NCBI GenBank assembly: GCA_030679255.1
Contig: JAUXTO010000022.1
Coordinates: forward strand, 64,915-128,914
Length of the DNA: 64,000 bases
Origin: Candidatus Gottesmanbacteria bacterium
Lineage (GTDB): Bacteria > Patescibacteriota > Microgenomatia > UBA10105 > UBA927
Reading direction: 5' to 3'
Of this stretch, positions 28,540 through 61,240 are shown one piece after another (the stretch's first letter is position 1; the number at the start of each line of letters is the position of its first letter). The notes below the pieces were generated by a model. It saw only the letters and a list, made by a program, of their open reading frames with translations. It was not told the origin of the DNA and did not search any database. Position numbers and translations under genes: made by a program.

Positions 28540-28663
28540 TCTCCCTCCTTCCCCCTTGTGTCACGACTTCTTCTATGATATTATAGGTCATTAGATTCAG
28601 CCTCAAGAGTGTATGTACGCTCCAAATAGGCTTCCTGCCACGACCTGCTAACACAATCGATAC

Positions 28664-30050: not shown

Positions 30051-30126
30051 ACGTATTTTCTATTATACGACAAAAAAAAAGGAACTCCACCTTGACAAAA
30101 AGATTATCTTAAGATAATCTTTATTT

Positions 30127-30784: not shown

Positions 30785-30804
30785 TCAGCATGGCATGTGG
30801 CCAC

Positions 30805-31527: not shown

Positions 31528-31572
31528 ATGATTTACTCCGTATCTACTTATCAGATAAAAAAATAATAAATT

Positions 31573-31644
31573 GTGGGCCCGCTTGGTGACGATCCAAGTG
31601 CCCCCGTCTTATAAGGACGATGCTCTACCGATGAGCTACGGGCC
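31573..31644 (-). tRNA. putative tRNA-Ile (anticodon TAT) with non-canonical T loop
   Basis: Acceptor GGGCCCG/CGGGCCC; D arm TA GCTC ATCGGTA GAGC; anticodon stem TCGTC/GACGG with loop CTTATAA (U33, UAU, A37); T stem CTTGG/CCAAG with loop ATCGTCA (A54/U58 instead of U54/A58). Confidence 0.5.
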
Positions 31645-31665
31645 CCGAGAGCATTATACCAAATC

Positions 31666-32346: not shown

Positions 32347-32422
32347 AATCGAACTTAAAAAGTTATACTGTACAAGTATAATACTAAATATCGAAAAAAT
32401 AATCTACAAGAGGAATATAGCG

Positions 32423-33796: not shown

Positions 33797-33882
33797 TATA
33801 TGTCCTGCAGAAAAAGTAAAGAGACAGTTTTCTGGGTGAGACGATTTGACAACATTGAAGTGTTACGTTATACTTTATAGAT

Positions 33883-34866
33883 ATGAAACAGATACTCGCC
33901 ACACTTGAGGCAAAAAAGCAACGTCTTGATGCCCATCGTCCACTCCCTTTGGCTCTTGTCCGTAACCTCAACGATTGGTTCAGCATCGAATTGACTTATA
34001 CCAGTAACGCGATTGAGGGCAATACGTTGTCGCGCGCTGAAACTGCGCTCATTGTGGAAAAAGGTCTCACGGTAGAAGGAAAAACGCTCAGCGAGCATCT
34101 GGAGGCAGTCAATCATGCGCAGGCGATCGAATATGTAGCCACACTGAGCAATCGTACGCGGGTTGATCTCACGCAAAAGCATCTCTTAGAACTCCATCGG
34201 TTGATTCTACAAAAAATTGATGATGCCAACGCCGGCCGGTATCGGAGCGTTTCCGTACGGATTGCCGGCTCCCGCGCTATCATGCCAAACCCCATGAAAG
34301 TCCCCCGCCTCTGCGATGAATTTATGACGTGGCTCACGAAAGCACAGGGCAATGAACTCATGATTGCCGCCGACGCGCACTTCCGGTTCGTCAGTATCCA
34401 CCCGTTCACCGACGGCAACGGTCGCACGGCACGGCTCTTGATGAACCTCGTATTGATGCAGGCCGGTTTCCCCCCGGCGATTATCCGCAAAGAGGATCGC
34501 AAACGGTACATCGACAGTATTGAGGCAGGGCAACTCGGAAAGTCACTGGACGACTACTATCAATTAATTTTTGAATCGGTCGACCGGTCGTTGGATATAT
34601 ATCTCGATGCCGTTGAGCAGAAAGAAAAAACGGATGTCATCACGAATAAAAAACAAATTAAAATTGGAGAGCTTGCGACACTCGCGGGTGAATCAGTCCC
34701 TACGATCCGGCATTGGACAAAAGAAGGACTCCTCGCCGTCGCCGCCCGCTCCCCCGGCGGATACCAGCTCTATGACGTGAGTCAGGTTGGGGTCATTAAA
34801 AAAATTATAAAACTGCAGGAGAAACGCTTCACTCTTGCAGAGATTAAAAAGTCACTCAACACCTAA
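33883..34866 (+). CDS. Fic-family protein with C-terminal MerR-like HTH
   Basis: HPFTDGNGRTARLLMNLVLM Fic motif; C-terminal IKIGELATLAGESVPTIRHWTKEGLL HTH. Paralog of 26232-27245. Confidence 0.85.
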   Translation: MKQILATLEAKKQRLDAHRPLPLALVRNLNDWFSIELTYTSNAIEGNTLSRAETALIVEKGLTVEGKTLSEHLEAVNHAQAIEYVATLSNRTRVDLTQKHLLELHRLILQKIDDANAGRYRSVSVRIAGSRAIMPNPMKVPRLCDEFMTWLTKAQGNELMIAADAHFRFVSIHPFTDGNGRTARLLMNLVLMQAGFPPAIIRKEDRKRYIDSIEAGQLGKSLDDYYQLIFESVDRSLDIYLDAVEQKEKTDVITNKKQIKIGELATLAGESVPTIRHWTKEGLLAVAARSPGGYQLYDVSQVGVIKKIIKLQEKRFTLAEIKKSLNT

Positions 34867-34956
34867 AATACACCCCTCCATCATCAACATTATCGCCATT
34901 TCTGGCAACAACTCCGATGATGGAGGGGGTCTTGCGTCTTGAATCTGCGGGGTGGG

Positions 34957-35220
34957 TTAGGTGGTCATCGGTTCTGTCGCAAAGCTGTAAACCGACTTTA
35001 CGCCGGTAATATGTAGCTTTGGACCGAGCCCTGGTTCACCGTTGGTGACCAGATAATGATATTCTGGACTACCCCATGACGGGCTCACTCGCTCTAAAGT
35101 CGCGTTTCCATTTGCGACAATGCGACTCAACTCTGCCTCGAATACTTCGGGGTTAACTTTGCCTTCGAAGAACACCTCATTATTGATTTTGATTAGGTGA
35201 TTCATTGCAAATCCTTTCAT
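34957..35220 (-). CDS. hypothetical small protein
   Basis: 87-aa ORF, no motif. Confidence 0.3.
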   Translation of the reverse strand: MKGFAMNHLIKINNEVFFEGKVNPEVFEAELSRIVANGNATLERVSPSWGSPEYHYLVTNGEPGLGPKLHITGVKSVYSFATEPMTT

Positions 35221-35594
35221 TATTTACTCCAGGTGTCATTCCATAAAACAGGAATCCTCTTTTTCTTTTTATTTTTCTCATCACTTCCTCTCTAAAATTT
35301 ATTGGCCGATCAGAGAGATTGAGACTATATCATCTCAACCTATTTAACCGGCCAATATCACCAAAGAATTCCTCCCGCAGATTGTCAAGGTGCTTCCGAG
35401 CACCGCAGTCCCGAACCGACGCCCCTCTGAGGCAAGGACGTAGCCCTTGCGAAGAGGTAAGTCTGGTTCTGGGATAACGTGCTAGAAAATAATGGTAAAC
35501 CAACAAAAAAACGCGTCGCTTTGTGACGCTCTTTATTGGCCTACGTATCAATGGAGTTTAGAAGAAGAAGATGAAGAAGTCAAATGCTATAGGA

Positions 35595-37985
35595 CTAAAG
35601 CCTCGCCCGCTGGGCGATTTCCGCTTCCACGAGCTCTTTGCTGCGACCGTATTTGAGGCGGGAGAGTTGGACGATGGCGGCAGCAACTGCCTGATTTTTG
35701 GAGGCAACTACTTTGCTCATATCCTTCGTCAAATCCATGCTAAAGGGCTTCACCGGCTCATTGTGGACCGTGGTTTTGACGTAGGCGTTGAAACGGTCGA
35801 TGTTGATGAGGTCTGACTCATTGAAGGTCGGCTGAAATTCATGTTGCAAATAGTTGGCATCCGTCACGCCAATACGGAATGAGGCCACGGTGCCGACGTT
35901 TCCAAATACGGCATTTTTCACTTCCTCTTCCATCTGCCCGATGAACTGATTGGCGACAATCAGATTGAGTCGGTATTTCCGGGCTTCGGAGAGAATTTGC
36001 GCAAAGTCCGGGGTCGCAAAATTTTGAAACTCATCGACGTAAAGATAAAAATCGCGCCGCTTTTCCTCCGGTATTTCCTGCCGGCTCATGGCGGAGATCA
36101 AAATACGGGGAACAAGGATAAGTCCAAGGAAATTGCTGTTCTCCTCACCAAGTTTCCCTTTAGCAAGATTGACCAAGAGGATCTTCCCCTCATCCATGAC
36201 TTTCCGAAACTCGAAGCTCGAGTTGGATTGCCCGATGATATTGCGGATGAGTTTATTGGTAATGAAGCGGCCAAATTTCGAGACGATGTAGTCCAGAACC
36301 TCGGATTTATGAAAGTCTGCCGTTTGGGCAATCTGATCCGTCCAATACCGCCGCACAATCGGATCTTTAACCAATGGTAATAACGACTGCACGAAGTCCG
36401 GCCGCTGGAGGGTCTGCACAACCTCAATGAATGTGCCGTTGGGAATGGCTTCCATGACGGTAAGCATTGCGTTTCGTATTGCGTGCTCAAACCGTGGCCC
36501 GATGATACCCGTTTTCATAGGGTCAAAGAGTTTATACATGAGTCCGACGATCGAGGTCGCCACAAAATGCTTTTGCAATTCTGTTTTCGCTTCCAATAAA
36601 TTCAGTCCGATCGGCCGCTCGCTGTCTCCGGGATCAAAATAAATGACGTCTTCAGCCCGCTCCGGCGGCATGCGCGCAAGGATATTTTCAACCAAATCTC
36701 CGTGGGGATCAACGACTGCCAACCCGTGCCCGGCGTGGATATCCTGCATGACCATCTCTTCAAGAAGTTGTGATTTACCTGTACCGGTTTTTCCGATGAT
36801 GTACATGTGCCGCCTCCGGTCGTCTTCACCGATATAAATCCTGCGGTCTTGCCCGCGGTACCGGGAAATCCCCATGAATAATCCTGACGAGGGAATCTGA
36901 GACGGAGCAGGGGCGCGCTTGGCGTTTAGCCAAAAGATGTGGGCGGTCTCAACCGATTTATTCGGCAAATGGAAAATGGTCGCTAGCTCATCGGTTGATA
37001 AGACGCTATGCTGCGGCAGGAGCGGCAAATTGATGACCGGAAAATATCGGTAAATGAAGTCCACCATAAACAGCTGTTTGAACGGGAGCTTCACTTTCGT
37101 AAAATTATTGTGGTCACTGGCAAACTGCTCAAATGCGCCGATAAGATTCTCGAGATGCCGTTTTGCCGATTCCTCATCCGGAGAAGATATGACCAGCCGG
37201 ACAACCGCATTAAATCCGGGCTTACTCACTTTGCCCTCGATAGCCTCGAGACTCTTGGGGTCCACTTTAAAACTCGCTTTTTCGGGATTCGCTTCGTCTT
37301 TCTTCACTTTGGAGATGTATCCCCGGCCGAGTTTACGCCACTTACTATCCGCCGGTTGGATGAGGATCTGGACGGCAGCCCCCTCCCCTTCCGCCATTTT
37401 TGCCAAAACCGAGGTGATTGAAGAAAGAGGATCTACCGGTAAATCCCGATAAATGCGCATCGGGAAATAATTAGAACTTTTGAGTTTAAGCGCCGCAAAC
37501 GCGACCTTACCGGTCTGAGAAAATATCGTGTATTCGTCTACCTCCTTGATATCCGCCCCGCTATAACTCCCGTGGATTTGCTTTTCTACGTAATCCATGA
37601 GTTTGCGTGGGCACGAGACATAAAAACGGATATCTTCGCGCTTGGCGACAATCTCAAACGAGATGTGCTCCTGTGGCTTGAGGAACGACCAAAATCCGCC
37701 GTGAGATATGGAATGAAGACTTGCAAACAACTGTTCCGCTGCATCTATTTTTATCTCATTTTCCCTAGGGACGGCTATCTGCATGAGGACATACTCGAGA
37801 CTGCGCTCTTCGCGTTTCCTATATTTCCACATGAGAAACGCGACGTAGCCAAGGATTACCAAACCCGCAAGAAACACCACTAACAATAAAAGGCTTACGG
37901 CAAATACTTCCAATTGATAAGTGAGGTCTGTAAATTGTAATGGCATATAACGAGTCGTAAAGTCCGTAAAGTTGAAAGTCTTCAT
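35595..37985 (-). CDS. VirB4/TrbE-like type IV secretion ATPase (AAA-like, DUF87-type), N-terminal TM segments
   Basis: Two N-terminal TM helices; Walker A MYIIGKTGTGKSQLL; Walker B LYVDEFQNF; ~800 aa, as for VirB4/CagE/TrbE. Confidence 0.6.
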   Translation of the reverse strand: MKTFNFTDFTTRYMPLQFTDLTYQLEVFAVSLLLLVVFLAGLVILGYVAFLMWKYRKREERSLEYVLMQIAVPRENEIKIDAAEQLFASLHSISHGGFWSFLKPQEHISFEIVAKREDIRFYVSCPRKLMDYVEKQIHGSYSGADIKEVDEYTIFSQTGKVAFAALKLKSSNYFPMRIYRDLPVDPLSSITSVLAKMAEGEGAAVQILIQPADSKWRKLGRGYISKVKKDEANPEKASFKVDPKSLEAIEGKVSKPGFNAVVRLVISSPDEESAKRHLENLIGAFEQFASDHNNFTKVKLPFKQLFMVDFIYRYFPVINLPLLPQHSVLSTDELATIFHLPNKSVETAHIFWLNAKRAPAPSQIPSSGLFMGISRYRGQDRRIYIGEDDRRRHMYIIGKTGTGKSQLLEEMVMQDIHAGHGLAVVDPHGDLVENILARMPPERAEDVIYFDPGDSERPIGLNLLEAKTELQKHFVATSIVGLMYKLFDPMKTGIIGPRFEHAIRNAMLTVMEAIPNGTFIEVVQTLQRPDFVQSLLPLVKDPIVRRYWTDQIAQTADFHKSEVLDYIVSKFGRFITNKLIRNIIGQSNSSFEFRKVMDEGKILLVNLAKGKLGEENSNFLGLILVPRILISAMSRQEIPEEKRRDFYLYVDEFQNFATPDFAQILSEARKYRLNLIVANQFIGQMEEEVKNAVFGNVGTVASFRIGVTDANYLQHEFQPTFNESDLINIDRFNAYVKTTVHNEPVKPFSMDLTKDMSKVVASKNQAVAAAIVQLSRLKYGRSKELVEAEIAQRARL

Positions 37986-38028
37986 GTAACGCTTTATCGA
38001 CTTTAAAGACTTTTTGACTTTATAGACT

Positions 38029-38481
38029 TTAGACTTTTGGACTTTTGACTAATGTTCTGTGCAATTGTTTCAGTCTGCGTACGCAAAATTCCGCGAGCCA
38101 ACGCCACGAACTCGTGACGCTTTGCTTGAGTCCTAACGCAATCTGATCGTCCGTAAGCGGCAAGGTCACGGGCGGAGCCACCGGCACCACTGCGTCCCCG
38201 ATCGCCTTCACGCCCATTTGCGCGACAGGCTGCGGCAGTTGCACCGTCGTGGGCTGCGTGGACACTCCTGCTGCCGCTACTTCCTTCGGAAGTTCCATCT
38301 CTTTGCCCGTTAGGTCTTTAAGTCCCGGCTCTTCACGTCCCAATCCTCCTACTTCGAATTCTTTCCCACTAATACTTCTACCCGATTGCCCACCCATTGA
38401 TTGAATTGGGCTAATTTGATTATTGGTAGTATTGGTAATATTTGTAGTATTGGTAGTATTGTCAGCAGATGAGCCATCCAT
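38029..38481 (-). CDS. hypothetical protein with N-terminal (TTN)n low-complexity segment
   Basis: ADNTTNTTNITNTTN is encoded by an (AATACTACC)n repeat. P/V/A-rich middle region. Confidence 0.35.
   Translation of the reverse strand: MDGSSADNTTNTTNITNTTNNQISPIQSMGGQSGRSISGKEFEVGGLGREEPGLKDLTGKEMELPKEVAAAGVSTQPTTVQLPQPVAQMGVKAIGDAVVPVAPPVTLPLTDDQIALGLKQSVTSSWRWLAEFCVRRLKQLHRTLVKSPKV
38422..38461. repeat. (GGTAGTATT)n tandem repeat inside ORF 38029-38481
   Basis: See 17084-17131. Confidence 0.65.
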
Positions 38482-38493
38482 ACTTTTATCATA

Positions 38494-40488
38494 TCACGAA
38501 GCATACGCAAAAATGACTGCGTGTTGAGGTAATAGATTCTTTCTTTTTTTCATTTGACGATTGGTAGTATTGGTAGTATTGGTAGTATTTTGCGCCCCCT
38601 GCTCCCGCAGTGCCGTTAAATAGTGAATAATCGACAAAAGTACCCACGGTGTCTCTTCTTTGTCTTGCAAGACATCGTCTTGCGAAGCTAGACGATGTCT
38701 TATGAAAGTACTCTTTGACGTACCGGCTTCTTTTCGACCAAGAATCATCCACACCATCCACGCAAACCGTACTCCGACAAAAACCATGCGCTCTTGCAAT
38801 CGCACATCCTCAGCAAAACCAGGCTTTGCTCTTCGAAAGCCCGGCTTTCGTAACACACGTTTTTCCTTTTCGCTTCGCGAGGCACTTCCTTGCGAAGCAA
38901 ACTTTGCAAATTCCGTATCTGCCACCGCTAACTTCACCCAAACTATTTTTTCGCGTCTTGGCATTCGCATCCGGTCAAGAGTCCGTTCCGCTCTCCGTAT
39001 CATCTGGTACAATTTTCTTATCTGTTGTTTTTCCCGCTTTTCCAAAATTATCGGTGTCAATAATTCTGCGGCCGCAACTTTTTTGATCCCTTTCTCCATG
39101 TTCATTTTTCTTCTCTCTTTCCGTTTACGCTTATCGCGATCATTGAAAGTAAAAATACGACCTTCGGCCGTCACCTCCAGATGCAGCTTCAACCGCTTCC
39201 TCCTCGCCTTCAGTTCTTTTGTCTCCCAGCTTCGCAAGACCACCTCTTGCGAAGCTAAACGATTCTTTTTTACTTCCCGTTTTGCTTTCCGTAATTCCTT
39301 ATTCTTTCTTCTTAATTCTTTTTTCGCGTGCCGTGCGATACTCTTTTCTACCGCCCGGACCGGTGTGGGCAATTGTTCTGCAATCCGGGCCAGAAGTACC
39401 GGCGCCGCATGCATGGCAAGGCCGGTCTCGGCTATCACGGATAGTGCCCGCGCGTCTCTTTGCATTTGAACATGACGCTTGGCAGTCAACTCAACGACGC
39501 TCACTGGCTTCTCACGGATTTTTGCTAACGTTATGCGCTCGGATGGTTGCCCTCTCCGGCCCTCAAGGACATTCGCTCGTTTCACTACTCCCTCCCCGTG
39601 CATCTCCCTCTGTATCTTTTTACTGCGCAAATAAACCGCCACATCTCTGACCGTTTCGCGCGTATCGTGAAGCACTCTTGATGAAATATCGGTCAACATA
39701 TCCTGGCGGTAATTCTCTTGTGTACTTGCTTGTTTTTGTTGGCGTTCCTGCGGCACCTCTTCTGGCAGACGCGAGTAGGTTTCCTGATGCGACCGGTGAA
39801 TCTTCGTCACCATTGCGTTTTTGATCTCGGCAAAGGAATTGTTTGCATTGGATTGAATTGCCAACACAAATGCTTGTTTTTGGTGCGCGTGCTGATGAAA
39901 CGAAACACTATCTTGCTGTTCAAACGCAGTAAATGACGTACCCGTACGCACATCTTCAATCCGTATATTTTTTCCCAAATCAATTCTTGACCCGTCATAC
40001 CGCGTGGGGTCGGACGCATTCTTCGTCCAAACGGAAAGATAGCGGGACACGATATTGCCGTCCTGATCCAAATGCTGTTCCGGCAAAATAATTTTTTCCG
40101 CGCCCTCAACCGCAAGCCTTGTCGCCTCCCGCAGTGTCGCTGCCTCAAGGGGCGCAGTAGCTTTTATATTCTCCGGCACGAGACTGCTGTATCTCCCTTG
40201 GGTAATATTTGCAGTCATTTCATCCAAACTCACTCCTGTTTCTGTCATCATCTTTCCATCACGAAGTGTGAGCGACCACTGACTTTCCTGTCCTTTTTGT
40301 TCCTGGATCCAACTCCGTATATCTGCGCGCAGATATTGCCGCGCTGTTTCTTCGCCAAGCGTAGCCACGTTCTCCGCGTAGGTTGCGTGAGCGAGTGCAT
40401 TATTCCAACTGTGTCCGCCTTCATCCCCGGCGAGGGCAAATTCTGCCATATCAGAGGATTGCCTCCATCCCTGTCTCCCACGGCGCAA
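38494..40488 (-). CDS. large hypothetical protein with basic K/R-rich C-terminal half
   Basis: 664-aa ORF downstream of the VirB4-like gene. Contains TTNTTN and KPGF repeat segments. Confidence 0.4.
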   Translation of the reverse strand: MRRGRQGWRQSSDMAEFALAGDEGGHSWNNALAHATYAENVATLGEETARQYLRADIRSWIQEQKGQESQWSLTLRDGKMMTETGVSLDEMTANITQGRYSSLVPENIKATAPLEAATLREATRLAVEGAEKIILPEQHLDQDGNIVSRYLSVWTKNASDPTRYDGSRIDLGKNIRIEDVRTGTSFTAFEQQDSVSFHQHAHQKQAFVLAIQSNANNSFAEIKNAMVTKIHRSHQETYSRLPEEVPQERQQKQASTQENYRQDMLTDISSRVLHDTRETVRDVAVYLRSKKIQREMHGEGVVKRANVLEGRRGQPSERITLAKIREKPVSVVELTAKRHVQMQRDARALSVIAETGLAMHAAPVLLARIAEQLPTPVRAVEKSIARHAKKELRRKNKELRKAKREVKKNRLASQEVVLRSWETKELKARRKRLKLHLEVTAEGRIFTFNDRDKRKRKERRKMNMEKGIKKVAAAELLTPIILEKREKQQIRKLYQMIRRAERTLDRMRMPRREKIVWVKLAVADTEFAKFASQGSASRSEKEKRVLRKPGFRRAKPGFAEDVRLQERMVFVGVRFAWMVWMILGRKEAGTSKSTFIRHRLASQDDVLQDKEETPWVLLSIIHYLTALREQGAQNTTNTTNTTNRQMKKRKNLLPQHAVIFAYAS
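38561..38590. repeat. (GGTAGTATT)n tandem repeat inside ORF 38494-40488
   Basis: See 17084-17131. Confidence 0.65.
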
Positions 40489-53928: not shown

Positions 53929-54111
53929 CTATGAGCTCAGAAGATACACCAAATAAAAAAATACCTCTCGAAGTAATTGAACGAATACGCGAGAAGATGA
54001 ATGGAGATGGAGATCCCGATAGTCACTATTATGAATACGTCCCGGTGACTCCTAAACAACAGTCTGTTTATGACAAGCCGGTTGAACCACAGCCGGACGA
54101 GGCAAGCTAAT

Positions 54112-55629
54112 ATGATCCTCATCATCGACTTTGGATCCCAAACCGCCCACCTCATCGGCCGCAGGCTTCGCACGCTTGGCGTCCCCGTGGGTTATTGCAA
54201 TCCCGAAGATGCGCTTTCTTATATTAAAGATAACCAGCCCAACGGTATCATCCTCTCCGGTGGGCCCAATGACATCAGTCACGACGCATCTCTGTCTGTC
54301 GACAAACAACTGTTCAACCTCGGATTGCCGGTACTGGGAATCTGCTATGGCTGGCAACTCATGGCACATCTCTTAGGCGGGACGGTCAAACATTCCAAAA
54401 AAGAATACGGCCCCGAGGAATTAGCGCTTGATAAGCGTACCAGTATATTCAATCTACCCCGAAAAAAATTCTCCGTTATCATGTCTCATGGCGACACCGT
54501 GACGAAATTGCCAAAAGATTTTATTGCGGTTGGGTCTACCAAACAAGTCCGTTTCGCCGCAGTAGTTAATGAAAAGAAAAAATTGTTTGGCGTCCAATTT
54601 CATCCCGAGGCGGATCATACGGAACATGGGACAGAACTACTGCAGAATTTTGCAATCGATATATGCGGTGAGTCACTCTCCCCTTTTGTATTAGATCCCA
54701 ACAAAATTATCCACTCTATTATAGATACCGTCGGTAAAAATAAAGTTATCTGTGCCGTTTCGGGAGGCGTGGATAGCACGGTCACTGCATTTCTCATCGG
54801 GAAAGCAATCGGCAATAACTTAATTCCGGTTTATGTAGATAGTGGTCTTATGCGACCTGGTACGGAAAAACGGGTCCATCATATATTTACAAAACTTATC
54901 CATGCAAATCTCGTTGTCGTCGATGCCCGAAAACAATTTATGGCGGCTCTCAAAGGCGTCACAGACCCAGAAGTGAAGAGAAAAACAATCGGCAAACTCT
55001 ACATCGACATATTTCAAGAACAATCGCTCAAACAAAAAGATGCCTCATTTCTTGGTCAGGGAACGATTTATTCTGATGTCATCGAAAGTAAAGGCAGTAA
55101 ACACGCTTCTCACATCAAGTCCCACCACAACGTCGGCGGCTTACCGAAAGACATGAAGCTCACGCTCCTCGAGCCCTTGCGGAATTTTTATAAGGACGAG
55201 GTTAGAGCAATTGGTCGACTCATCGGATTGCCCAATGAGACTGTACAGGAACAGGTATTTCCGGGCCCAGGCTATGCGGTCCGTATCCGAGGAGAAGTCA
55301 CCACCGAACGGCTTGAGCAGATTAAACGAGCAGATAGTATCGTTGTGGATGAAATGAAAAAGGCTGGACTCTACGATAAAACGTATATGTGCTTTGCGAT
55401 CATGACCGGCACACATTCTACCGCCGTCAAAGGAGATGCGCGGGTATTTGCGGAAGTTGTCGCTATTCGTTCCGTCGATTCGCAGGATGTGATGACGAGT
55501 GAATGGACGCGCATCCCACATGACGTTCTTCATGTCATGGCGTCCCGAATCGTCAATGAAGTACCCAACATCTCCCGCGTCGTCTACGACATCACGACCA
55601 AACCCCCGGCGACCATGGAATGGGAATAA
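54112..55629 (+). CDS. guaA: GMP synthase (glutamine-hydrolysing)
   Basis: Class I GATase (ILIIDFGSQTAHLIGRRLRTLGV, GICYGWQL), ATP-PPase P-loop CAVSGGVDSTV, and the dimerisation C-terminus ending ...PPATMEWE. Confidence 0.95.
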   Translation: MILIIDFGSQTAHLIGRRLRTLGVPVGYCNPEDALSYIKDNQPNGIILSGGPNDISHDASLSVDKQLFNLGLPVLGICYGWQLMAHLLGGTVKHSKKEYGPEELALDKRTSIFNLPRKKFSVIMSHGDTVTKLPKDFIAVGSTKQVRFAAVVNEKKKLFGVQFHPEADHTEHGTELLQNFAIDICGESLSPFVLDPNKIIHSIIDTVGKNKVICAVSGGVDSTVTAFLIGKAIGNNLIPVYVDSGLMRPGTEKRVHHIFTKLIHANLVVVDARKQFMAALKGVTDPEVKRKTIGKLYIDIFQEQSLKQKDASFLGQGTIYSDVIESKGSKHASHIKSHHNVGGLPKDMKLTLLEPLRNFYKDEVRAIGRLIGLPNETVQEQVFPGPGYAVRIRGEVTTERLEQIKRADSIVVDEMKKAGLYDKTYMCFAIMTGTHSTAVKGDARVFAEVVAIRSVDSQDVMTSEWTRIPHDVLHVMASRIVNEVPNISRVVYDITTKPPATMEWE

Positions 55630-55632
55630 AAC
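55604..55632 (+). repeat. guaA 3'-terminal segment; first copy of a ~25-nt direct repeat (CGGCGACCATGGAATGGGAATAAAAC)
   Basis: Nearly identical copies recur at 56349-56377 and 57253-57275. Confidence 0.7.
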
Positions 55633-55635
55633 CAT

Positions 55636-56025
55636 TTATTTCCCACTCGCCAATCGAGCCAGGTCTTTATCAAATGTAAGCACCGTTTTGATCTTGTACG
55701 CCTCGATAATCGCCACGGAATAGCAATCCACCCAACTTATATTCTTACTTTTAACCATCTTAAAGATCTCCCACGCTCGGATCACAAGCTCATGCGTCTC
55801 AAAGAGGACCGTCGTTGTGCTCCCACGAAGAATATCTTCAACAAATGCAATCGTCGCTTCCTTACTGAATCGCTGCGATCCCACCGTTGCCACTTCTCCC
55901 AATATCGCCTGTGACGTGAGCTTTGGGGCCATGCCATGTTCTCTGGCTAGAGCTACTGCGGCATCGTGATTACTATCAGTAGGTTTGAGGAGACTTATGT
56001 AAAACGAGGCATCGACAAAAATCAT
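55636..56025 (-). CDS. vapC: PIN-domain toxin VapC
   Basis: MIFVDASFYISLL start and conserved acidic pattern. Confidence 0.8.
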   Translation of the reverse strand: MIFVDASFYISLLKPTDSNHDAAVALAREHGMAPKLTSQAILGEVATVGSQRFSKEATIAFVEDILRGSTTTVLFETHELVIRAWEIFKMVKSKNISWVDCYSVAIIEAYKIKTVLTFDKDLARLASGK

Positions 56026-56279
56026 ATCCGCTTGTCTCCATAAAGGTAGCGTTTGTAGTTGGTAGAAAGATCCGTAGAATATTTTTTGCCTTTGTACCGT
56101 TTCCCGATCTCAGCAAGCGCCAGGAGCTCATTTTTTACGTTCTTCCTTTTGGATAGGAAATGCCCGTCTATCGCCTCTCGCACCACATCAGAGACGCTCT
56201 GCCGCCCCTGCTGGGCAAGGAGAGTTAACATCTGCTTCTGCTCCTCTGGTATGCGGACCACGAGTTGTGTCATACGCAT
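56022..56279 (-). CDS. ribbon-helix-helix (CopG/VapB-like) antitoxin
   Basis: LVVRIPEEQKQMLTLLAQQGRQSVSDVVREAI is an RHH motif. Stop overlaps the VapC start. Confidence 0.6.
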   Translation of the reverse strand: MRMTQLVVRIPEEQKQMLTLLAQQGRQSVSDVVREAIDGHFLSKRKNVKNELLALAEIGKRYKGKKYSTDLSTNYKRYLYGDKRI

Positions 56280-56348
56280 TACATATTACAATTACTGCGG
56301 GGTGTTGTCAATAAGGGGGTTGTCTCCATTCTCATGCAGCACTAAACC

Positions 56349-56377
56349 TCCGGCGACTATGGAGTGGGAGTAAAACA
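56349..56377 (+). repeat. second copy of the guaA 3'-end direct repeat (CGGCGACTATGGAGTGGGAGTAAAAC)
   Basis: 24/26 nt identical to the guaA terminus, including the stop codon. Confidence 0.7.
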
Positions 56378-56394
56378 GTATTAGCTACGAATTA

Positions 56395-57060
56395 TTAAAA
56401 TTTAATCTGTGGATATTGAGGCTTCCAATCCCATTTTTGCCTTGGTTGCTTACTCTTTGGATCAAAATCCCAACCGCTTTTTACTAAAAGCTTATTGAGT
56501 CTCCCTCGAAGCGTCGATGCTTCCGATCTGCTTAAATCTCCATCATATGATGCCACCGCTGCTACATTCAGTCCATGAAAAATAAGAGTATCTACCGCAT
56601 GAAATGCCTCCTTAACCATTGGTGTAATAATGGGATTATTTTCTCGAAATGTATGCCGGGCGGTTGCCAAATCCAAGGGAAGAACACCACCGCTGTGTGC
56701 CGTTTGTCTAGCAAACTCTTCGGGTTGTATGATATCGGTTGTCTGTTCGGAAAAAGGATCAATAACGATTATTCCTTTCTCATTTTTATAGGTAATCGTT
56801 TCAAACCCCGGAGCAACTTTATCGGCACCTGTGGCAGGATCGAAATAGCGCACTTTCTGCGCGAGGTGATAACGAACTTGAGGATGGGAAATGTCAAGAA
56901 CTCTTTGCTGAACGGGCGTTGGATTATCTGCACTTATCTGTCCCAGAGGCACGCCGAGAGACACGCGGGGTCTTCCGTCCCCTATTCCACCAAGAATAGA
57001 TTGCGTAGGTTCGGGAAATATTGAAGGGATTTCAGCTTGTGCGTCAAGTCCAACCATCAA
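56395..57060 (-). CDS. hypothetical protein, cassette paralog A
   Basis: Shares a conserved core with the next gene (R..H....V.Y..PA.G...V.P......I.....G.I..DP). Confidence 0.45.
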   Translation of the reverse strand: MMVGLDAQAEIPSIFPEPTQSILGGIGDGRPRVSLGVPLGQISADNPTPVQQRVLDISHPQVRYHLAQKVRYFDPATGADKVAPGFETITYKNEKGIIVIDPFSEQTTDIIQPEEFARQTAHSGGVLPLDLATARHTFRENNPIITPMVKEAFHAVDTLIFHGLNVAAVASYDGDLSRSEASTLRGRLNKLLVKSGWDFDPKSKQPRQKWDWKPQYPQIKF

Positions 57061-57062
57061 CG

Positions 57063-57110
57063 CTTAGAGTACTCTCTCTCTCTCTCTGGAAATCAAGCTG
57101 CAGGCGCAAA
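57063..57110 (+). repeat. direct repeat R2 (AGTACTCTCTCTCTCTCTGGAAATCAAGCTGCAGGCGCAAATC)
   Basis: Second copy at 58155-58200 (AGTACTCTCTCTCTCTGGAAAATCAAGCGGTGGGTGCGAATC). The two copies bracket cassette paralog B. Confidence 0.6.
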
Positions 57111-57252
57111 TCGTCGTGCAGATATTAGTGCTAATATTAATAATCAAATCTGAATAGCCTTGACAAAATACACCACGTGGTTTATTTTGTCTCAACTTAA
57201 AAACAGCTTAAAAGGTAGAAAGGGGTAGAAAGCCAAACATCACCACAAACCC

Positions 57253-57275
57253 CAAACGACTATGGAGTGGGAATA
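57253..57275 (+). repeat. third copy of the guaA 3'-end direct repeat (CGACTATGGAGTGGGAATAG)
   Basis: Direct sequence identity to the other two copies. Confidence 0.65.
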
Positions 57276-58135
57276 GCTTGAAGACACGATTCTAATACTC
57301 CTGTCATTCCCTTGAGATCATCAGCATACATAGGATCTCTTTTTGTGGTGCGAAGCAATCCAAGCGCCTCTTGTACAGCCTCACGCGAAGCCTCATCCGT
57401 GATCGAATTCCCTTGTCCAATCCGGAGTATCAACTTATTATGTGGAAATATACGATTTTCTGTAAACGATGTATACTGATCGTCTGTCATGATGGCGCTG
57501 GCGAGCATGGTTTTTGGATCACACGCGATAGTTCCCCGCTTCCCTTTGTGAATAATCAAATCATATCTCGGAAATACGCGTTCTTCTCCAACGGCGGGAT
57601 TCCAATACACCACTGCATCGTTATGGACAATCCGTGTTTCTTTGTTAGCTACATCCACAACTCGCAATAACGCCAAACGATCGCTGCTCTCCGGCGCAGC
57701 ACCCAAATCCATTTCCGCTACATGAAATGTTCTGTCTGCCAACCCCCCATGAAACCACCGCTCTGGCGGAACAGTCGTGACATCTAGGCCTCGCGCTCTA
57801 TCATAACGATTCGGCTCGGGTCTTGCCTCCCGATCAAGCCCCTGCATATTTAATTGCACCATTGCCGCTTTTCTTTTTTTGACATCTTTTCTATGTTCAA
57901 AATACGTACGTGCCCGTTCAGCCTCATCCAAACTCTCCTCCCCCTTTTTGACTCTATGCATAATTTGACCAAGCTCCCTGCCTGCCTCTTTGACACTCAG
58001 AGTTGCCCTTTTCAGGGGCGCCTGAACACGTGCCAATAGGCTAGCAGAAACCTTGTCCCGCAGCGCCTGCTGCGCGGGCGTTTGTTCCATCGCCGGTGTC
58101 CAATTGACTGGTTTGCCTTCTGTTACTTCAACCAT
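57260..58135 (-). CDS. hypothetical protein, cassette paralog B (K/R-rich N-terminal extension)
   Basis: C-terminal ~150 aa homologous to paralog A (RIVHNDAVVYWNPAVGEERVFPRYDLIIHKGKRGTIACDP versus RYHLAQKVRYFDPATGADKVAPGFETITYKNEKGIIVIDP). Confidence 0.45.
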   Translation of the reverse strand: MVEVTEGKPVNWTPAMEQTPAQQALRDKVSASLLARVQAPLKRATLSVKEAGRELGQIMHRVKKGEESLDEAERARTYFEHRKDVKKRKAAMVQLNMQGLDREARPEPNRYDRARGLDVTTVPPERWFHGGLADRTFHVAEMDLGAAPESSDRLALLRVVDVANKETRIVHNDAVVYWNPAVGEERVFPRYDLIIHKGKRGTIACDPKTMLASAIMTDDQYTSFTENRIFPHNKLILRIGQGNSITDEASREAVQEALGLLRTTKRDPMYADDLKGMTGVLESCLQAIPTP

Positions 58136-58154
58136 AATTTTCTCCTACTTGGAT

Positions 58155-58200
58155 AGTACTCTCTCTCTCTGGAAAATCAAGCGGTGGGTGCGAATCAACA
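58155..58200 (+). repeat. direct repeat R2, second copy
   Basis: See 57063-57110. Confidence 0.6.
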
Positions 58201-58226: not shown

Positions 58227-58556
58227 ATGGCGTGGAATGTCCGATTCTTTCAAACAACAAGAGGCGACTATCCGGTAAAAAAATTCATTGAGGAACAAGA
58301 CATGCCCACTATTGCCAAAATAACTCACTCGATCGAACTTTTGGAAAGCTATGGCCCCTACCTCAAGCCCCCATACATCAAAAAACTTGAAGACAAACTT
58401 TATGAATTGAGAATATCTGGTAAAATCGCGGTCCGAATTTTTTATACGATGTCACACAATGCGTACTACTTGTTACACGCTTTCAAAAAGAAAACGAATA
58501 AGACGCCTCGCAGGGACCTCCGCACCGCCCTTGACAGAACAAGAGAACTAATATAG
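58227..58556 (+). CDS. higB: HigB-like (RelE/ParE superfamily, phage Gp49-like) toxin
   Basis: VRFFQTTRGDYPVKKFIE...LYELRISGKIAVRIFY...YYLLHAFKKK matches the Gp49/HigB family. Start taken at MAWNVRFF. Confidence 0.7.
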   Translation: MAWNVRFFQTTRGDYPVKKFIEEQDMPTIAKITHSIELLESYGPYLKPPYIKKLEDKLYELRISGKIAVRIFYTMSHNAYYLLHAFKKKTNKTPRRDLRTALDRTRELI

Positions 58557-58568
58557 CATATATGCTAT

Positions 58569-58853
58569 ATGAAACACCGACACATGGATTTTTCCGTTTG
58601 GAAAAAACAGGCTTTACAAAATCCGGCGCTGCGGACAGAATATGATAAGCTGCAACCGGAATTTGCGCTTATTCGTGCTGTGGTAGAAGCCAGGACAAAA
58701 CGAGGCCTCACGCAAACGGAGCTAGCCCAACGGATAGGCACCAAGCAATCTGTCATTTCTCGACTTGAGATCGGCAGAGCAAACCCATCGGTAGCATTCC
58801 TCAAAAAACTCGCAGAGGCGCTCAACAGTAACCTACAAATCCGCTTTACGTAA
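58569..58853 (+). CDS. higA: XRE-family HTH antitoxin (HigA-like)
   Basis: RTKRGLTQTELAQRIGTKQSVISRLEIGRANPSVAFLKKLAEAL is a Cro/C1-type HTH. Confidence 0.75.
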   Translation: MKHRHMDFSVWKKQALQNPALRTEYDKLQPEFALIRAVVEARTKRGLTQTELAQRIGTKQSVISRLEIGRANPSVAFLKKLAEALNSNLQIRFT

Positions 58854-58854: not shown

Positions 58855-59763
58855 ATGATACCGGCCTATCCGAAAATTTTCTCCATCGGCTCGCCCTACA
58901 TCCCTCATCTCTTCAAGGGGAGCGTTGAAGTGACGGAAAAAATAGACGGCAGCCAATTTACCTTTGGTCTGGATAGTCAGAAAAACCTACTGCTTCGCAG
59001 CAAAGGCAAAGACCTCTATATTGATGATCCGGAAAAAATGTTCCAGGGTGCCATCGATTATGTGGTCGCAATTGGCGAAAAAATAAAAAAACAATTTCCC
59101 CCGGAAACGTTCTTTTATACGGAATTTTTAAGTACACCAAAACACAATGTCTTACCGTATGCACGGATTCCCAACAATCATCTCATGGTGTTTGCTGCCT
59201 ATTTTGCAGGCACCGGATTTGTCGATTATAAAAAATTAAAAGTAATAAGCGATCTGTTGGATCTTGAGGTCGTACCGCTTCTTTTTGAAGGAGAAATAAA
59301 AAATGTTGAAGAACTGAACCATTTGCTCAATCGTACAAGCGGCTTGGGCGGCGAAACCGTTGAGGGAATTGTGGTAAAAAACTACGCGCAAACGGTCTTT
59401 ATTGCCGACCAGGTCTTTCCTTCGTTGGGCAAATTTGTCCGGGAACAGTTTAAAGAACGCCATAAAAAGGAGTGGAAGAGAAAAGAAGGAAAAGGCAAAT
59501 GGCAAACCTTCTTGGAAAGTTTTCGGACCGATGCCAGATTTAGAAAATCGGTACAACACCTTACCGAAAAAGGGGAGCTAAGCTTTACTCCCGCCGATAT
59601 TGGCAAACTTATGGTCGAGCTGAAAAAAGATGTTATTGACGAAGAAAAAGAAGCGATCAAAGAAGAACTCTACACATTCTTTATTGATGAAATTTTGCGC
59701 AAAGCCACCGCTGGGTTCCCCGAGTGGTATAAAGAGCAACTGCTGAAAAAAGCCTTTACCTAG
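58855..59763 (+). CDS. ATP-dependent RNA ligase, Rnl2/nucleotidyltransferase family
   Basis: Motif I EKIDGSQFTF (KxDG), motif IV-like EGIVVKNY, and lysine-rich motif V. Confidence 0.55.
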   Translation: MIPAYPKIFSIGSPYIPHLFKGSVEVTEKIDGSQFTFGLDSQKNLLLRSKGKDLYIDDPEKMFQGAIDYVVAIGEKIKKQFPPETFFYTEFLSTPKHNVLPYARIPNNHLMVFAAYFAGTGFVDYKKLKVISDLLDLEVVPLLFEGEIKNVEELNHLLNRTSGLGGETVEGIVVKNYAQTVFIADQVFPSLGKFVREQFKERHKKEWKRKEGKGKWQTFLESFRTDARFRKSVQHLTEKGELSFTPADIGKLMVELKKDVIDEEKEAIKEELYTFFIDEILRKATAGFPEWYKEQLLKKAFT

Positions 59764-61240
59764 GTTTATTGATGACAATCGGGCGCAAGCGGCTCATTTC
59801 CTCGAGAGAATAGTGCACTCCTTGGACCCCGAGGCCCGAACGTTTGACCCCAAGAAATGGAAAGTGGTCGGGGCCGCGTTGGGGACTCCCATTAATTTGA
59901 ACGGTGCCAACGTTTAACTGCTTGGCCACCACAATCCCCGCCCCCTCGTCTTGGGTAAACACCGAGGCCTGCAGTCCAAACCGCGATGCATTGATGATCC
60001 CCACTGCCTCCCCAATGTCCTTAACAGTGATGAAAGACACCACCGGTCCGAATACTTCCTCTCGCACTGCCGGCATTTCCGGCCGGACGTCAGATAATAT
60101 TGTTGGCTCGACGAATGCGTTTGTTCGCCTGCCACCGGTAATAATTTTTGCCCCAGCCTTCACGGTCTCACCGATGAGCGACTGGATATGTTCGGCTGCC
60201 GCAATGGAAACAACTGGTCCCACGAGTTTGGTCTCCGGACTCCGGGGATCACCCATGTGCACAAGCTCAGGCATTTGTTTCATGATGACTGTTTGAAGTG
60301 ATGCAAGGGTGTCAGGCATTCCGAGGACATACTTGATCGCCGTACAGCGCTGCCCGGCATACGAGAAGGCTCCTTTGATAATCTCGCGGGCGGTGAGATT
60401 CATATCCGCGTCCGGGAGAACTAAGGCTGGATTGTTGCCGCCGCATTCAAAGACCAACGTCTTCATCCCCGCCTTTTTAGCTATGGCCTCCCCAGTGTCT
60501 GAGTTTCCTGTGAAGGTGATGCAATCGATGCCCGGATGAGAAACGAGATAATCCCCGATATCACTCCCCGTCCCCGTCACACACGTGAGCGCTCCTTCCG
60601 GTACACCTGCTTTCAGAAATGCTTGTGCCAAATGGAGCGCGCTTATTCCCCCTTGCGTCGGCGGCTTAAAGACGACCGCGTTACCCATCAGGAGCGCCGG
60701 GGCGAGTTTACTCGCAGTAAGATTGACGGGATAATTAAAGGGTGCAATAGCAAGAACTGTCCCCCATGCCACGCGCTCGATGAGACCAATCCGTCCTTTG
60801 TCATACCCAGGAAAATTATCGCTATCCAGAGTCTCCCCGCGCATCGACTGGACTTCATCGGCGTAGTAATCGATGAGGTCAGCGGTCCGGACAATTTCAC
60901 TTTTGGCTTCTCCCATGGACTTGCCAATTTCTTTTGCAAGCAATGTTGAAAGATATTCTTCAAAATGCCGGATCCAGTCGGCCGCCAAATGCATGATCTT
61001 TACGCGTTGGTTAAGGGGTGTGGCTTCCCACTTCGCTTGTCCGGTTTTAGCAGAGGTCATCACCGCGTCAATCTCGACTATCGTCACGACCTGCAGTGCC
61101 CCCACCACACTATCATCTATAGGAGAATGGATCTCTACCGTTTTTCCGCTCGCGCTTTCCACCCACTCTTTTCCATTAAAAAAACGATACACAGGTGGTG
61201 TCGCGTGATTACTGAGGGTTTCAAAAAATTCTTCCGGCAT
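59756..61240 (-). CDS. gapN: NADP-dependent non-phosphorylating glyceraldehyde-3-phosphate dehydrogenase (aldehyde dehydrogenase family)
   Basis: ALDH motifs FKPPTQGG, catalytic FECGGNNPALV (Glu) and GQRCTA (Cys). N-terminus resembles GapN. Confidence 0.8.
   Translation of the reverse strand: MPEEFFETLSNHATPPVYRFFNGKEWVESASGKTVEIHSPIDDSVVGALQVVTIVEIDAVMTSAKTGQAKWEATPLNQRVKIMHLAADWIRHFEEYLSTLLAKEIGKSMGEAKSEIVRTADLIDYYADEVQSMRGETLDSDNFPGYDKGRIGLIERVAWGTVLAIAPFNYPVNLTASKLAPALLMGNAVVFKPPTQGGISALHLAQAFLKAGVPEGALTCVTGTGSDIGDYLVSHPGIDCITFTGNSDTGEAIAKKAGMKTLVFECGGNNPALVLPDADMNLTAREIIKGAFSYAGQRCTAIKYVLGMPDTLASLQTVIMKQMPELVHMGDPRSPETKLVGPVVSIAAAEHIQSLIGETVKAGAKIITGGRRTNAFVEPTILSDVRPEMPAVREEVFGPVVSFITVKDIGEAVGIINASRFGLQASVFTQDEGAGIVVAKQLNVGTVQINGSPQRGPDHFPFLGVKRSGLGVQGVHYSLEEMSRLRPIVINKPR

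What the first reader, a model, noticed from the sequence alone, without database searches (positions are those of the whole stretch)
56395..58135. Two homologous hypothetical proteins (cassette paralogs A and B) with no recognisable domain
ORFs 56395-57060 and 57260-58135 share a conserved ~150-aa core with invariant R, H, Y..PA.G, G.I..DP and F...P..I positions. B adds a K/R-rich coiled N-terminal extension. They sit in separate repeat-bounded cassettes among toxin-antitoxin modules. That context suggests a toxin-like, defence or effector role. The conserved Arg/His/Tyr/Asp pattern is compatible with an enzymatic (possibly NAD- or nucleotide-utilising) fold. I cannot assign them to any known family from sequence alone.
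Basis: inference. Interest (0 to 1): 0.6.

Follow-up and report, generated by a model that had tools for sequence, protein, structure and literature searches.

The report
Orphan paralog pair beside guaA
Two diverged copies of an undescribed, fast-evolving protein family found only in a few ultra-small (CPR/Gottesmanbacteria-type) bacteria sit in a gene-insertion hot spot at the end of the guaA gene; they are real and related to each other, but no known domain or fold matches them and their function is still only inferred.

Summary
ORF A (56395-57057/57060, minus strand) and ORF B (57260-58135, minus strand) are real genes of a Candidatus Gottesmanbacteria MAG. They share a core of about 145 aa (profile-profile probability 98.9%, E 3.7e-17). 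No Pfam, NCBIfam, PHROG, PADLOC or PDB-sequence match was found, and Foldseek found no fold match.

The family is tiny: 12 representative clusters among 1.84 billion proteins, all from CPR-type contigs, none from phages or plasmids.

New findings:
- B's basic helical N-terminal module is a separate upstream gene in other genomes, so the unit has two components.
- All subtypes keep one promoter, TTGAYT-(AG)n-TAnnnT. Its spacer length differs between genomes (12-20 nt).
- The genes evolve fast (dN/dS 0.24-0.57, against 0.05-0.07 for flanking genes). Gene A is younger at silent sites than its flanks, which points to horizontal exchange.
- The "cassette repeats" are copies of the last 30-39 nt of guaA. 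In related genomes the same repeats flank vapBC, hicAB or AAA_14/DUF4143 ATPase genes. B's stop codon lies inside one copy.

Best reading (inferred): accessory, conflict-type cargo of an integrase-less insertion hot spot. An NAD- or nucleotide-using enzyme fold is unsupported, and both window copies lack some family-conserved polar residues.

The parts
54070..55629 (+). guaA (GMP synthase). Its last ~30-40 nt form the repeated sequence (DR1, 55600-55633).
   Evidence: ORF and translation ending in ...KPPATMEWE*. Orthologues carry GATase/GMP_synt_C Pfam hits. Repeat family D1 and alignment.
55636..56279 (-). vapBC-type toxin-antitoxin insert: PIN toxin 55636-56025 and RHH antitoxin 56022-56279. 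It lies between guaA-end copies DR1 and DR2.
   Evidence: Pfam PIN 2.8e-14 and RHH_1 6e-4. The same insert with the same boundaries is in L010.
56344..56376 (+). DR2, a non-coding copy of the guaA 3' end (AAACCTCCGGCGACTATGGAGTGGGAGTAAAAC), 19 nt beyond the stop codon of A.
   Evidence: It is conserved next to A-type genes in L002, L010 and L032.
56395..57057 (-). Gene A (220 aa from ATG 57057, 221 aa from TTG 57060). The conserved core is at about 56581-57018. The basic C-terminal tail is at about 56398-56580.
   Evidence: AF2 gives pLDDT 76 and pTM 0.74, with a beta-meander at 31-108 and a helical hairpin at 146-198. dN/dS is 0.24-0.36.
57066..57096 (-). Promoter of A: TTGATT, a 19-nt spacer containing (AG)8, then TACTCT. 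The ATG lies 8 nt after the -10 element, so the transcript looks leaderless.
   Evidence: Conserved upstream of family genes in 10 loci, with spacer lengths of 12-20 nt.
57162..57191 (.). 30-nt perfect palindrome. In relatives it is the promoter/operator of a divergent PaaX_M-like gene (TTGACA-17-TATTTT on the + strand). That gene is absent from the window.
   Evidence: Inverted repeat I12. Promoter scan. 100% identical in L002 and ~95% in L001, directly upstream of the PaaX_M-like gene. No PaaX-like gene in the window.
57238..57276 (+). DR3, a 39-nt copy of the guaA 3' end. Its complement encodes B's last residues and stop codon (IPTP*).
   Evidence: In L009 the real guaA 3' end overlaps the B-type gene by 17 nt in exactly this register.
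57260..58135 (-). Gene B (291 aa). The basic helical N-module spans residues 1-123 (57767-58135). The conserved core spans residues 124-261 (57353-57766). A C-terminal helix ends in IPTP.
   Evidence: The N-module is a separate upstream gene in L037 and L033.
58142..58180 (-). Promoter and ribosome-binding site of B: TTGATT, a 16-nt spacer containing (AG)6, TACTAT, then AGGAG 6 nt before the ATG.
58227..58853 (+). higBA-type toxin-antitoxin module: Gp49/HigB-like 58227-58556 and an HTH_3 antitoxin 58569-58853. It is divergent from B.
   Evidence: Pfam Gp49 4e-21 and HTH_3 1e-16.
58855..61240 (.). Far border of the variable region: RNA ligase-like gene (58855-59763, +) and aldehyde dehydrogenase (59756-61240, -). 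Both are conserved backbone genes in relatives.
   Evidence: Pfam RNA_ligase 5e-15. Aldedh is present in L002, L022 and L031. In L037 a 51-nt guaA-end copy lies just before the RNA ligase gene.

Best explanation
A and B are two anciently diverged paralogues (about 23% identity) of an orphan protein family. The family is restricted to a few CPR (Gottesmanbacteria-related) genomes.

Shown:
- The functional unit has two modules. One is a mildly acidic core of ~145-165 aa (a beta-meander followed by a helical hairpin). The other is a basic helical module.
- The basic module is fused N-terminally in B. In other genomes it is encoded by a separate gene 16-17 nt upstream of the core gene. In A it is replaced by a basic C-terminal tail.
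- Each gene has its own conserved sigma70-type promoter, and an (AG)n tract forms the spacer of that promoter.
- The genes are accessory and fast-evolving. At least A has been exchanged horizontally.
- The genes sit in an insertion hot spot made of duplicated guaA 3' ends. In relatives the same hot spot takes up vapBC, hicAB and AAA_14/DUF4143 ATPase genes.

Inferred:
- The family is cargo of the 'conflict' type: a toxin-like, defence or addiction function.
- The core acts as effector, either a small enzyme or a ligand binder built around the invariant D161/R168/N243 and the usually conserved HGG.GD..H and D..H positions.
- The basic helical module acts as its tether or regulator, like an antitoxin or a sensor. 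When it is fused, as in B, the protein would be auto-inhibited.
- Expression is set, and perhaps switched on and off, by slippage of the (AG)n spacer.
For: Homology and family:
-.

Real coding genes under purifying but relaxed selection:
- dN/dS is 0.24-0.36 for A and 0.41-0.57 for B. It is 0.05-0.09 for guaA, Aldedh and the PRTase.

Recent exchange and foreign composition (window vs L002):
- Third-codon-position identity is 0.71 for A, against 0.47-0.59 for flanking genes.
- A has the lowest amino-acid identity of the compared genes.
- GC3 is 0.34 for A, against 0.51-0.59 for the flanks.

Patchy, narrow distribution:
- 8 clusters among 5.8 billion proteins and 12 representatives among 1.84 billion.
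- Only one GTDB species representative carries the family.

Split versus fused N-module:
-.

Conserved promoter with variable (AG)n:
- Spacer lengths are 12, 12, 14, 15, 16 (four loci), 17, 19 and 20 nt.

Variable, conflict-rich neighbourhood:
- TA modules in the window, L010, L031 and L033.
- AAA_14/DUF4143 ATPases adjacent in L010, L022, L031, L032 and L037.

Hot spot:
- Different inserts lie between the same guaA-end repeats.
Against: - No sequence or fold similarity to any toxin, defence protein or enzyme.
- Both window copies lack some family-conserved polar residues. This argues against a simple shared active site, or means these copies are degenerate.
- A-type genes stand alone without an N-module, which fits poorly with a strictly neutralised toxin.
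- (AG)n variation was seen only between genomes. It was not seen within a population: 8 Hainich contigs are identical, and there the tract is interrupted.
- Association with TA modules and ATPases may reflect only a shared insertion hot spot, because gene orientations vary.
Confidence: 0.35

Rival explanations
1. The protein is a non-enzymatic structural, adaptor or nucleic-acid-associated protein. The beta-rich core oligomerises through its C-terminal helical hairpin. The basic N-module (in B) or C-tail (in A) binds DNA, RNA or membrane. There is no toxic or defence activity.
For: - Core pI is 5.7 and the appendages have pI 9.8-9.9.
- Long helical hairpins are predicted.
- The only weak structural echoes are helical-hairpin adaptor proteins.
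- The putative catalytic residues are not all kept in A and B.
- The weak repeated hit to an adhesin beta-hairpin repeat suggests a plain structural motif.
Against: - Several polar positions (D161, R168, N243) are invariant across members that are 20-30% identical.
- Rapid evolution, horizontal exchange and hot-spot location are unusual for a structural cell component.
Confidence: 0.25
2. The proteins serve the mobility or maintenance of the guaA-end cassettes themselves. They would act as a site-specific DNA-binding or recombination accessory factor that recognises the duplicated guaA 3' end.
For: - The guaA-end copy lies at or within 25 nt of the 3' end of A- and B-type genes in the window, L001, L002, L009, L010, L022 and L032.
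- That copy travels with a B-type gene to a site away from guaA in L022.
- No integrase lies in the islet.
Against: - Family members in L011, L031, L033 and L034 have no such repeat.
- In L030 the same repeats flank hicAB where no family member is present.
- In L009 the arrangement is simply a convergent 17-nt overlap with the real guaA. That overlap explains the repeat as an inherited gene end.
- There is no similarity to recombinases or excisionases.
Confidence: 0.08
3. The window copies are decaying remnants. The family once had a function, but A and B here are drifting towards pseudogenes and do nothing at present.
For: - B has dN/dS 0.41-0.57 and replaces two near-invariant residues (D233N, H237L), next to a short deletion.
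- A's promoter spacer is 19 nt, which is sub-optimal.
- L037 carries an internally deleted core of 121 aa.
- The divergent PaaX_M-like partner gene has been lost from the window, leaving only its operator.
Against: - Both ORFs are intact, at 220 and 291 codons.
- dN/dS is clearly below 1.
- The promoter, and for B the Shine-Dalgarno sequence, are preserved.
- A orthologues at 60-72% identity keep full length.
Confidence: 0.15
4. The family has a lineage-specific housekeeping role tied to guanine-nucleotide metabolism. This would explain its place next to guaA in a nucleotide-salvage gene cluster.
For: - Most loci place the gene directly downstream of guaA, among PRTases, cytidylate kinase, NUDIX, HD and NrdR-RNR genes.
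- The ancestral arrangement overlaps guaA.
Against: - The genes are convergent with guaA, so they are not co-transcribed.
- The family is absent from nearly all CPR genomes.
- It evolves fast and is compositionally atypical.
- It is also found away from guaA (L011, L022, L031, L034).
Confidence: 0.04

Closest known systems
Tandem accretion of integrase-less elements (CIMEs) and IMEs at the 3' end of guaA, for example GIsul2, ATE-1 and the Brucella suis IncP island (review PMC5704250)
   Same: Inserted DNA is flanked by direct repeats that are copies of the 3' end of guaA. Several inserts lie in tandem. Cargo includes toxin-antitoxin genes. Different cargo occupies the same site in related genomes.
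   Different: The modules here are only 0.7-1.3 kb with one or two genes. No integrase, relaxase or replication gene lies in or beside the array. The only tyrosine recombinase in the window is Xer-like and lies 27 kb away. One repeat copy is simply the retained overlap between guaA and gene B. This comparison concerns the context of A and B, not the proteins themselves.
Type II toxin-antitoxin pairs and single-chain fused toxin-antitoxin defence proteins such as CapRel (from my own knowledge, not tested here)
   Same: A small two-gene operon, with the partner gene 16-17 nt upstream of the core gene, alternates with a fused single protein. The genes are located among TA modules in a variable island, evolve fast and are exchanged horizontally.
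   Different: Neither module resembles any known toxin or antitoxin family. The upstream partner is basic and large (152-265 aa) rather than a small acidic DNA-binding antitoxin. A-type genes lack the partner altogether. No toxicity data exist.
Phase-variable ('contingency') promoters with a simple-sequence repeat between the -35 and -10 elements, such as the Haemophilus influenzae hifA/hifB (TA)n promoter (from my own knowledge)
   Same: A dinucleotide repeat forms the spacer of a sigma70-type promoter. Repeat number differs between related genomes and gives spacers from 12 to 20 nt.
   Different: Variation was seen only between species-level genomes, not within a population. Expression was not measured. 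Tracts are short (4-8 units).
   Same: Small, mostly single-gene modules bounded by repeats, carrying TA genes and proteins of unknown function.
   Different: The repeats are direct copies of a coding 3' end, not attC hairpin sites. There is no intI, attI or Pc. The genes carry their own promoters and lie in both orientations.

Membership tests
Any curated protein family (Pfam-A, NCBIfam, PHROGs, PADLOC) or solved structure | A significant profile or sequence match to a family model or a PDB chain | tested here: not met
   The best hits are all far below curated cut-offs. Examples are PglZ at E 0.067, CARF at 0.032 and PDB 4olp at 0.011. None is shared by more than one of the 15 members.
Type II toxin-antitoxin module | A two-gene operon with closely spaced partner and effector genes | tested here: inconclusive
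   The split form exists in L033 and L037, with gaps of 16-17 nt. In the window B is a fusion and A has no partner.
Type II toxin-antitoxin module | Toxicity of one component that is neutralised by the other | not testable with these tools
   This needs expression experiments.
Integron gene cassette | attC recombination sites bounding each cassette, with an adjacent intI/attI platform | tested here: not met
   The boundaries are direct copies of the guaA 3' end. No integron integrase is present. The only tyrosine recombinase (28664-29545) is Xer-like and distant.
Site-specifically integrated element or CIME at the guaA 3' end | The insert is flanked by direct repeats that reproduce the 3' end of the target gene | tested here: met
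   Three copies are in the window (55600-55633, 56344-56376, 57238-57276). The same structure flanks vapBC in L010, an AAA_14 ATPase gene in L032, sigma70/DUF5667 in L001, hicAB in L030 and a whole islet in L037.
Site-specifically integrated element or CIME at the guaA 3' end | A cognate integrase at one end, or demonstrable excision (attP/attB junctions) | tested here: not met
   No integrase gene lies between guaA and Aldedh in the window or in L001, L002 or L031. Excision junctions could not be searched because no read data were available.
Phase-variable promoter (contingency locus) | A simple-sequence repeat within the -35/-10 spacer whose unit number varies | tested here: inconclusive
   (AG)4-8 gives spacers of 12-20 nt across 11 promoters from different genomes. 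There is no variation among 8 contigs of one population. The effect on expression was not tested.

The most novel reading that the evidence does not exclude
A and B would represent a new two-component (or fused) conflict system specific to CPR bacteria. The core would be an effector with a new fold, controlled by a basic helical partner. Expression would come from a slippage-prone (AG)n promoter. The genes would be carried as small integrase-less cassettes that enter and leave a recombination site formed by the last ~30 nt of guaA. That would be a cassette-capture platform distinct from integrons and from classical integrase-bearing islands.
Probability: 0.15. Interest if true: 0.65.

Novelty: new variant of a known kind. 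Interest (0 to 1): 0.35.

Why it matters
CPR/Patescibacteria genomes are small, and more than half of their genes have no assigned function. Accessory genes that are exchanged, evolve quickly and carry switchable promoters are the likeliest players in their interactions with hosts and phages. This locus offers three things:
- A defined orphan family with a testable two-module architecture.
- A conserved promoter with a repeat spacer that could be the first contingency-type switch described in this group.
- A compact, comparably organised insertion hot spot at guaA, where cassette turnover (TA modules, COG1373-type ATPases, this family) can be followed across related genomes.

None of this is established function. 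As it stands, the locus is a well-delimited hypothetical family rather than a discovery.

Tried and rejected
- **Profile searches.** Both proteins, and then all 15 members, were searched against Pfam, NCBIfam, PHROGs, PADLOC and PDB sequences. Nothing was found.
- **Integron reading.** Rejected, because the repeats are guaA 3' ends.
- **Phage or plasmid origin.** There are no relatives in IMG/VR, INPHARED phages or PLSDB plasmids.
- **Link to the guaA-end sequence as such.** Rejected. Of the 19 metagenome loci with the exact 20-nt motif, only 2 encode a family member.
- **The 2837-aa adhesin hit (P0017).** It comes from summing ten weak matches to a 'G.V.IDP..G.V.Y.P' beta-hairpin repeat, so it was not treated as homology.
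- **The (CT)n motif upstream of A and B as a plus-strand promoter.** Considered, then replaced by the sense-strand reading. Only the sense-strand reading is conserved, with a fixed distance to the Shine-Dalgarno sequence or ATG, in 10 loci.
- **Family-wide locus search.** The search for related loci with the whole-family alignment failed because no conserved 7-10-residue stretch exists. The subtype searches found only one GTDB genome, and the 'LASLQ'-subtype search of JGI metagenomes found nothing.
Full report
**1. The observation**

The two ORFs are present on the minus strand as described. A is 56395-57060 (221 aa from TTG). B is 57260-58135 (291 aa). Both are annotated hypothetical proteins (Q8L37_03775 and Q8L37_03780) of a Candidatus Gottesmanbacteria MAG. 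The conserved start of A's orthologues is the ATG at 57057.

Pairwise BLASTP finds only 28% identity over 64 aa (E 2e-9). A profile of five A-type orthologues, compared with a profile of four B-type orthologues, gives 98.9% probability and E 3.7e-17 over 144 columns (A 15-160, B 124-261). The ~150-aa shared core is therefore real and is not low-complexity sequence.

B's extra N-terminal region is predicted as a long helical hairpin (residues 20-103) and is basic, with pI 9.8.

**2. No known family or fold**

Pfam, NCBIfam, PHROGs, PADLOC and PDB-sequence searches were run with the single proteins, with every member of a 15-sequence alignment, and with the family profile. They gave only sub-threshold, mutually inconsistent hits.

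AlphaFold2 models were built on the 8 available sequences. The A model has pLDDT 76 and pTM 0.74, with the core near pLDDT 90. The B model has pLDDT 71. The core is a meander of eight beta strands followed by a helical hairpin.

**3. Size and make-up of the family**

Searches of 5.8 billion proteins returned 8 clusters. An exhaustive HMMER scan of 1.84 billion representatives returned 12 genuine members. One further hit was spurious. It is an adhesin that matches ten times through a beta-hairpin repeat motif.

Only one GTDB species representative carries a member. None occurs in IMG/VR, INPHARED phages or PLSDB plasmids.

There are three subtypes:
- A-type: core only, with a basic C-terminal tail.
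- B-type: N-module plus core, ending in IPTP.
- A third type ending in LASLQ.

Residues invariant across all 15 members are G131, G145, D161, R168, G201, N243 and A253. Near-invariant residues are G130, D134, A172, G183, I194, P207, D233 and H237 (B numbering).

The window copies are each incomplete for this set. A has L and R where the HGG.GD..H motif has its two histidines. B has N233 and L237 next to a short deletion.

**4. Two-module architecture**

The first ~30 residues of B carry the motif GKP.NWTP..EQTP.QQ.LR.KV. This motif recurs at the N-terminus of a separate 152-aa protein encoded 17 nt upstream of the core gene in L037. It also recurs inside a 265-aa protein encoded 16 nt upstream of the core gene in L033. 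It is fused to the core in B, P0002, P0003 and P0009. Such gene fission and fusion argue that the N-module and the core work together.

The core is mildly acidic (pI 5.7). Both kinds of appendage, B's N-module and A's C-tail, are basic (pI 9.8-9.9).

**5. Conserved promoter with a repeat spacer**

Eleven family promoters from ten loci share TTGA(C/T)T, a short linker, (AG)4-8, and then TA(C/A/T)(C/T)(C/A)T. B-type genes and split operons follow with AGGAG and an ATG 15-19 nt after the -10 element. A-type genes have the ATG 8 nt after the -10 element, which looks leaderless.

The spacer is 12, 12, 14, 15, 16, 16, 16, 16, 17, 19 and 20 nt in the different genomes. It is 16 nt for B and 19 nt for A in the window.

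This is the architecture of slippage-controlled promoters. However, I saw no length variation among eight contigs of one Hainich population, where the tract is interrupted. Phase variation therefore remains an inference.

**6. Evolutionary behaviour**

| Gene | dN/dS | dS | Source |
|---|---|---|---|
| A-type pairs | 0.24-0.36 | 0.5-0.8 | |
| B-type pairs | 0.41-0.57 | 0.7-1.5 | |
| Flanking guaA, Aldedh, PRTase (same genomes) | 0.05-0.09 | 0.85-2.2 | |

A model-free comparison, window against L002, gives the same picture:

| Gene | Third-position identity | Amino-acid identity | GC3 (window copy) |
|---|---|---|---|
| A | 0.71 | 0.72 | 0.34 |
| guaA | 0.47 | 0.79 | 0.51 |
| Aldedh | 0.49 | 0.87 | 0.56 |
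| PRTase | 0.59 | 0.90 | 0.59 |

A is therefore both younger at silent sites than its surroundings and faster at the protein level. That is the signature of a horizontally exchanged accessory gene under relaxed or diversifying selection.

**7. What the 'cassette repeats' are**

The last ~30 nt of guaA (…KPPATMEWE*) occur three times in direct orientation: 55600-55633, 56344-56376 and 57238-57276.

In L009 a B-type gene and the real guaA converge and overlap by 17 nt. B's IPTP-stop is the antisense of guaA's TMEWE codons. That overlap is the likely ancestral state.

Wherever DNA has since been inserted between the two genes, the overlap region is duplicated so that both genes stay intact. The inserts found between such copies are:
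- vapBC in the window and L010.
- An AAA_14/DUF4143 ATPase gene in L032.
- A sigma70/DUF5667 block in L001.
- A 40-nt hairpin in L002.
- A whole islet in L037, where a 51-nt copy abuts the RNA ligase gene.
- hicAB in L030, a contig that has the guaA repeats but no family member.

In L022 a B-type gene has moved away from guaA together with its copy of the repeat.

The 3' end of guaA is a documented target of tyrosine-integrase elements in several phyla, and integrase-less remnants that accrete in tandem (CIMEs) are known (PMC5704250). Here no integrase lies in the array. The only tyrosine recombinase in the window, at 28664-29545, is Xer-like. The exact 20-nt motif is not predictive of the family, because only 2 of 19 metagenome loci with it carry a member.

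**8. Neighbourhood**

Family genes lie next to the following:
- TA modules in the window, L010, L031 and L033.
- AAA_14/DUF4143 ATPases in L010, L022, L031, L032 and L037, in varying orientation.
- A divergent PaaX_M-like gene in L001 and L002.

The 30-nt palindrome at 57162-57191 upstream of A is 100% identical in L002. There it is the promoter/operator of that divergent PaaX_M-like gene. The gene itself is missing from the window.

**9. Interpretation**

Shown:
- The two genes are homologous.
- The family is an orphan.
- The unit has a two-module architecture.
- The promoter is conserved.
- The genes have accessory, exchanged and fast-evolving behaviour.
- The repeats are duplicated guaA 3' ends.

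Inferred:
- The family is conflict-type cargo, with the core as effector and the basic helical module as tether or regulator.
- The (AG)n tract tunes or switches expression.

I give this reading 0.35. The rivals are:
- A non-enzymatic structural or nucleic-acid-associated protein (0.25).
- Decaying remnants in this genome (0.15).
- A role in cassette mobility (0.08).
- A guanine-nucleotide housekeeping role (0.04).

**10. Verdict**

The finding is a correct and well-delimited observation of an uncharacterised, lineage-restricted family. Orphan proteins are common in CPR genomes, so the finding on its own is of modest interest. The split/fused architecture, the repeat-spacer promoter and the guaA-end insertion hot spot make it a reasonable candidate for follow-up, but no function is demonstrated.

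Noticed in passing
window 55600-55633, 56344-56376, 57238-57276; L030 1029-1832; L032 744-2086; L037 315-4196: The 3' end of guaA acts as an insertion hot spot in these CPR genomes. Copies of its last 30-51 nt flank different small inserts: vapBC, hicAB, an AAA_14/DUF4143 ATPase gene, a sigma70/DUF5667 block and a 40-nt hairpin. No integrase is nearby. This also occurs on a contig that lacks the A/B family.
   Followed up: partly
window 15189-15241 and 27322-27370 (+ strand): Two further promoter-like boxes have the same build as the A/B promoters but use (CT)n: CTATAGGnTTGACTTT-(CT)n-G-TAAAAT, with spacers of 21 and 17 nt. They lie upstream of hypothetical genes at 15299-15793 and 27368-27760. 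Dinucleotide-repeat spacers may be a wider promoter type in this genome.
   Followed up: partly
window 57162-57191: This perfect 30-nt palindrome is 100% identical to the promoter/operator of a divergent PaaX_M-like (membrane-anchored, Cas2-like C-terminus) gene in L002 and L001. In the window that gene is gone and the operator is orphaned upstream of A.
   Followed up: yes
window about 21600-38000: A possible mobile region. It contains 78-nt inverted repeats (21606-21683 / 27988-28065, 81% complementary), a 28-nt inverted repeat (24805-24832 / 34881-34908, 96% complementary), a tyrosine recombinase (28664-29545), two Fic-MerR paralogues (26232-27245 minus strand, 33883-34866 plus strand) and a TrwB-like coupling-protein homologue (35595-37985).
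   Followed up: no
window 17058-17158 and 38396-38592: Arrays of a 9-nt unit (ATTGGTAGT) occur at two distant places. One lies inside the ORF called at 16627-18654 (TyrRS-like). The other lies inside or next to the 664-aa ORF 38494-40488, which has no Pfam hit.
   Followed up: no
window 6560-6664, 8804-8858, 28141-28195: A 25-nt repeat (TTGGAATTTGGTGCTTGGGATTTG) occurs in tandem and again about 2.2 kb away. Its nature is unknown.
   Followed up: no
window 54070-54112: The guaA ORF as listed starts 14 codons upstream of the start used by orthologues (MILIIDFGSQ...). It overlaps the small ORF 53931-54110, so the true start is probably the ATG at 54112.
   Followed up: no
window 14446-15013 (- strand): Another toxin-antitoxin pair lies here (RelB/DinJ-like 14699-15013 and RelE/YafQ-like 14446-14754), and a PIN-domain gene lies at 15892-16311. 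Toxin-antitoxin genes are scattered through the window, not only beside guaA.
   Followed up: no
L033 2203-3423; window 55636-57060; L010 783-2188: The same vapBC module, with the same vapB promoter sequence, follows a family gene in the same orientation in three loci. In L033 no guaA-end repeat lies between them. This is either a hot-spot coincidence or a looser functional association.
   Followed up: partly
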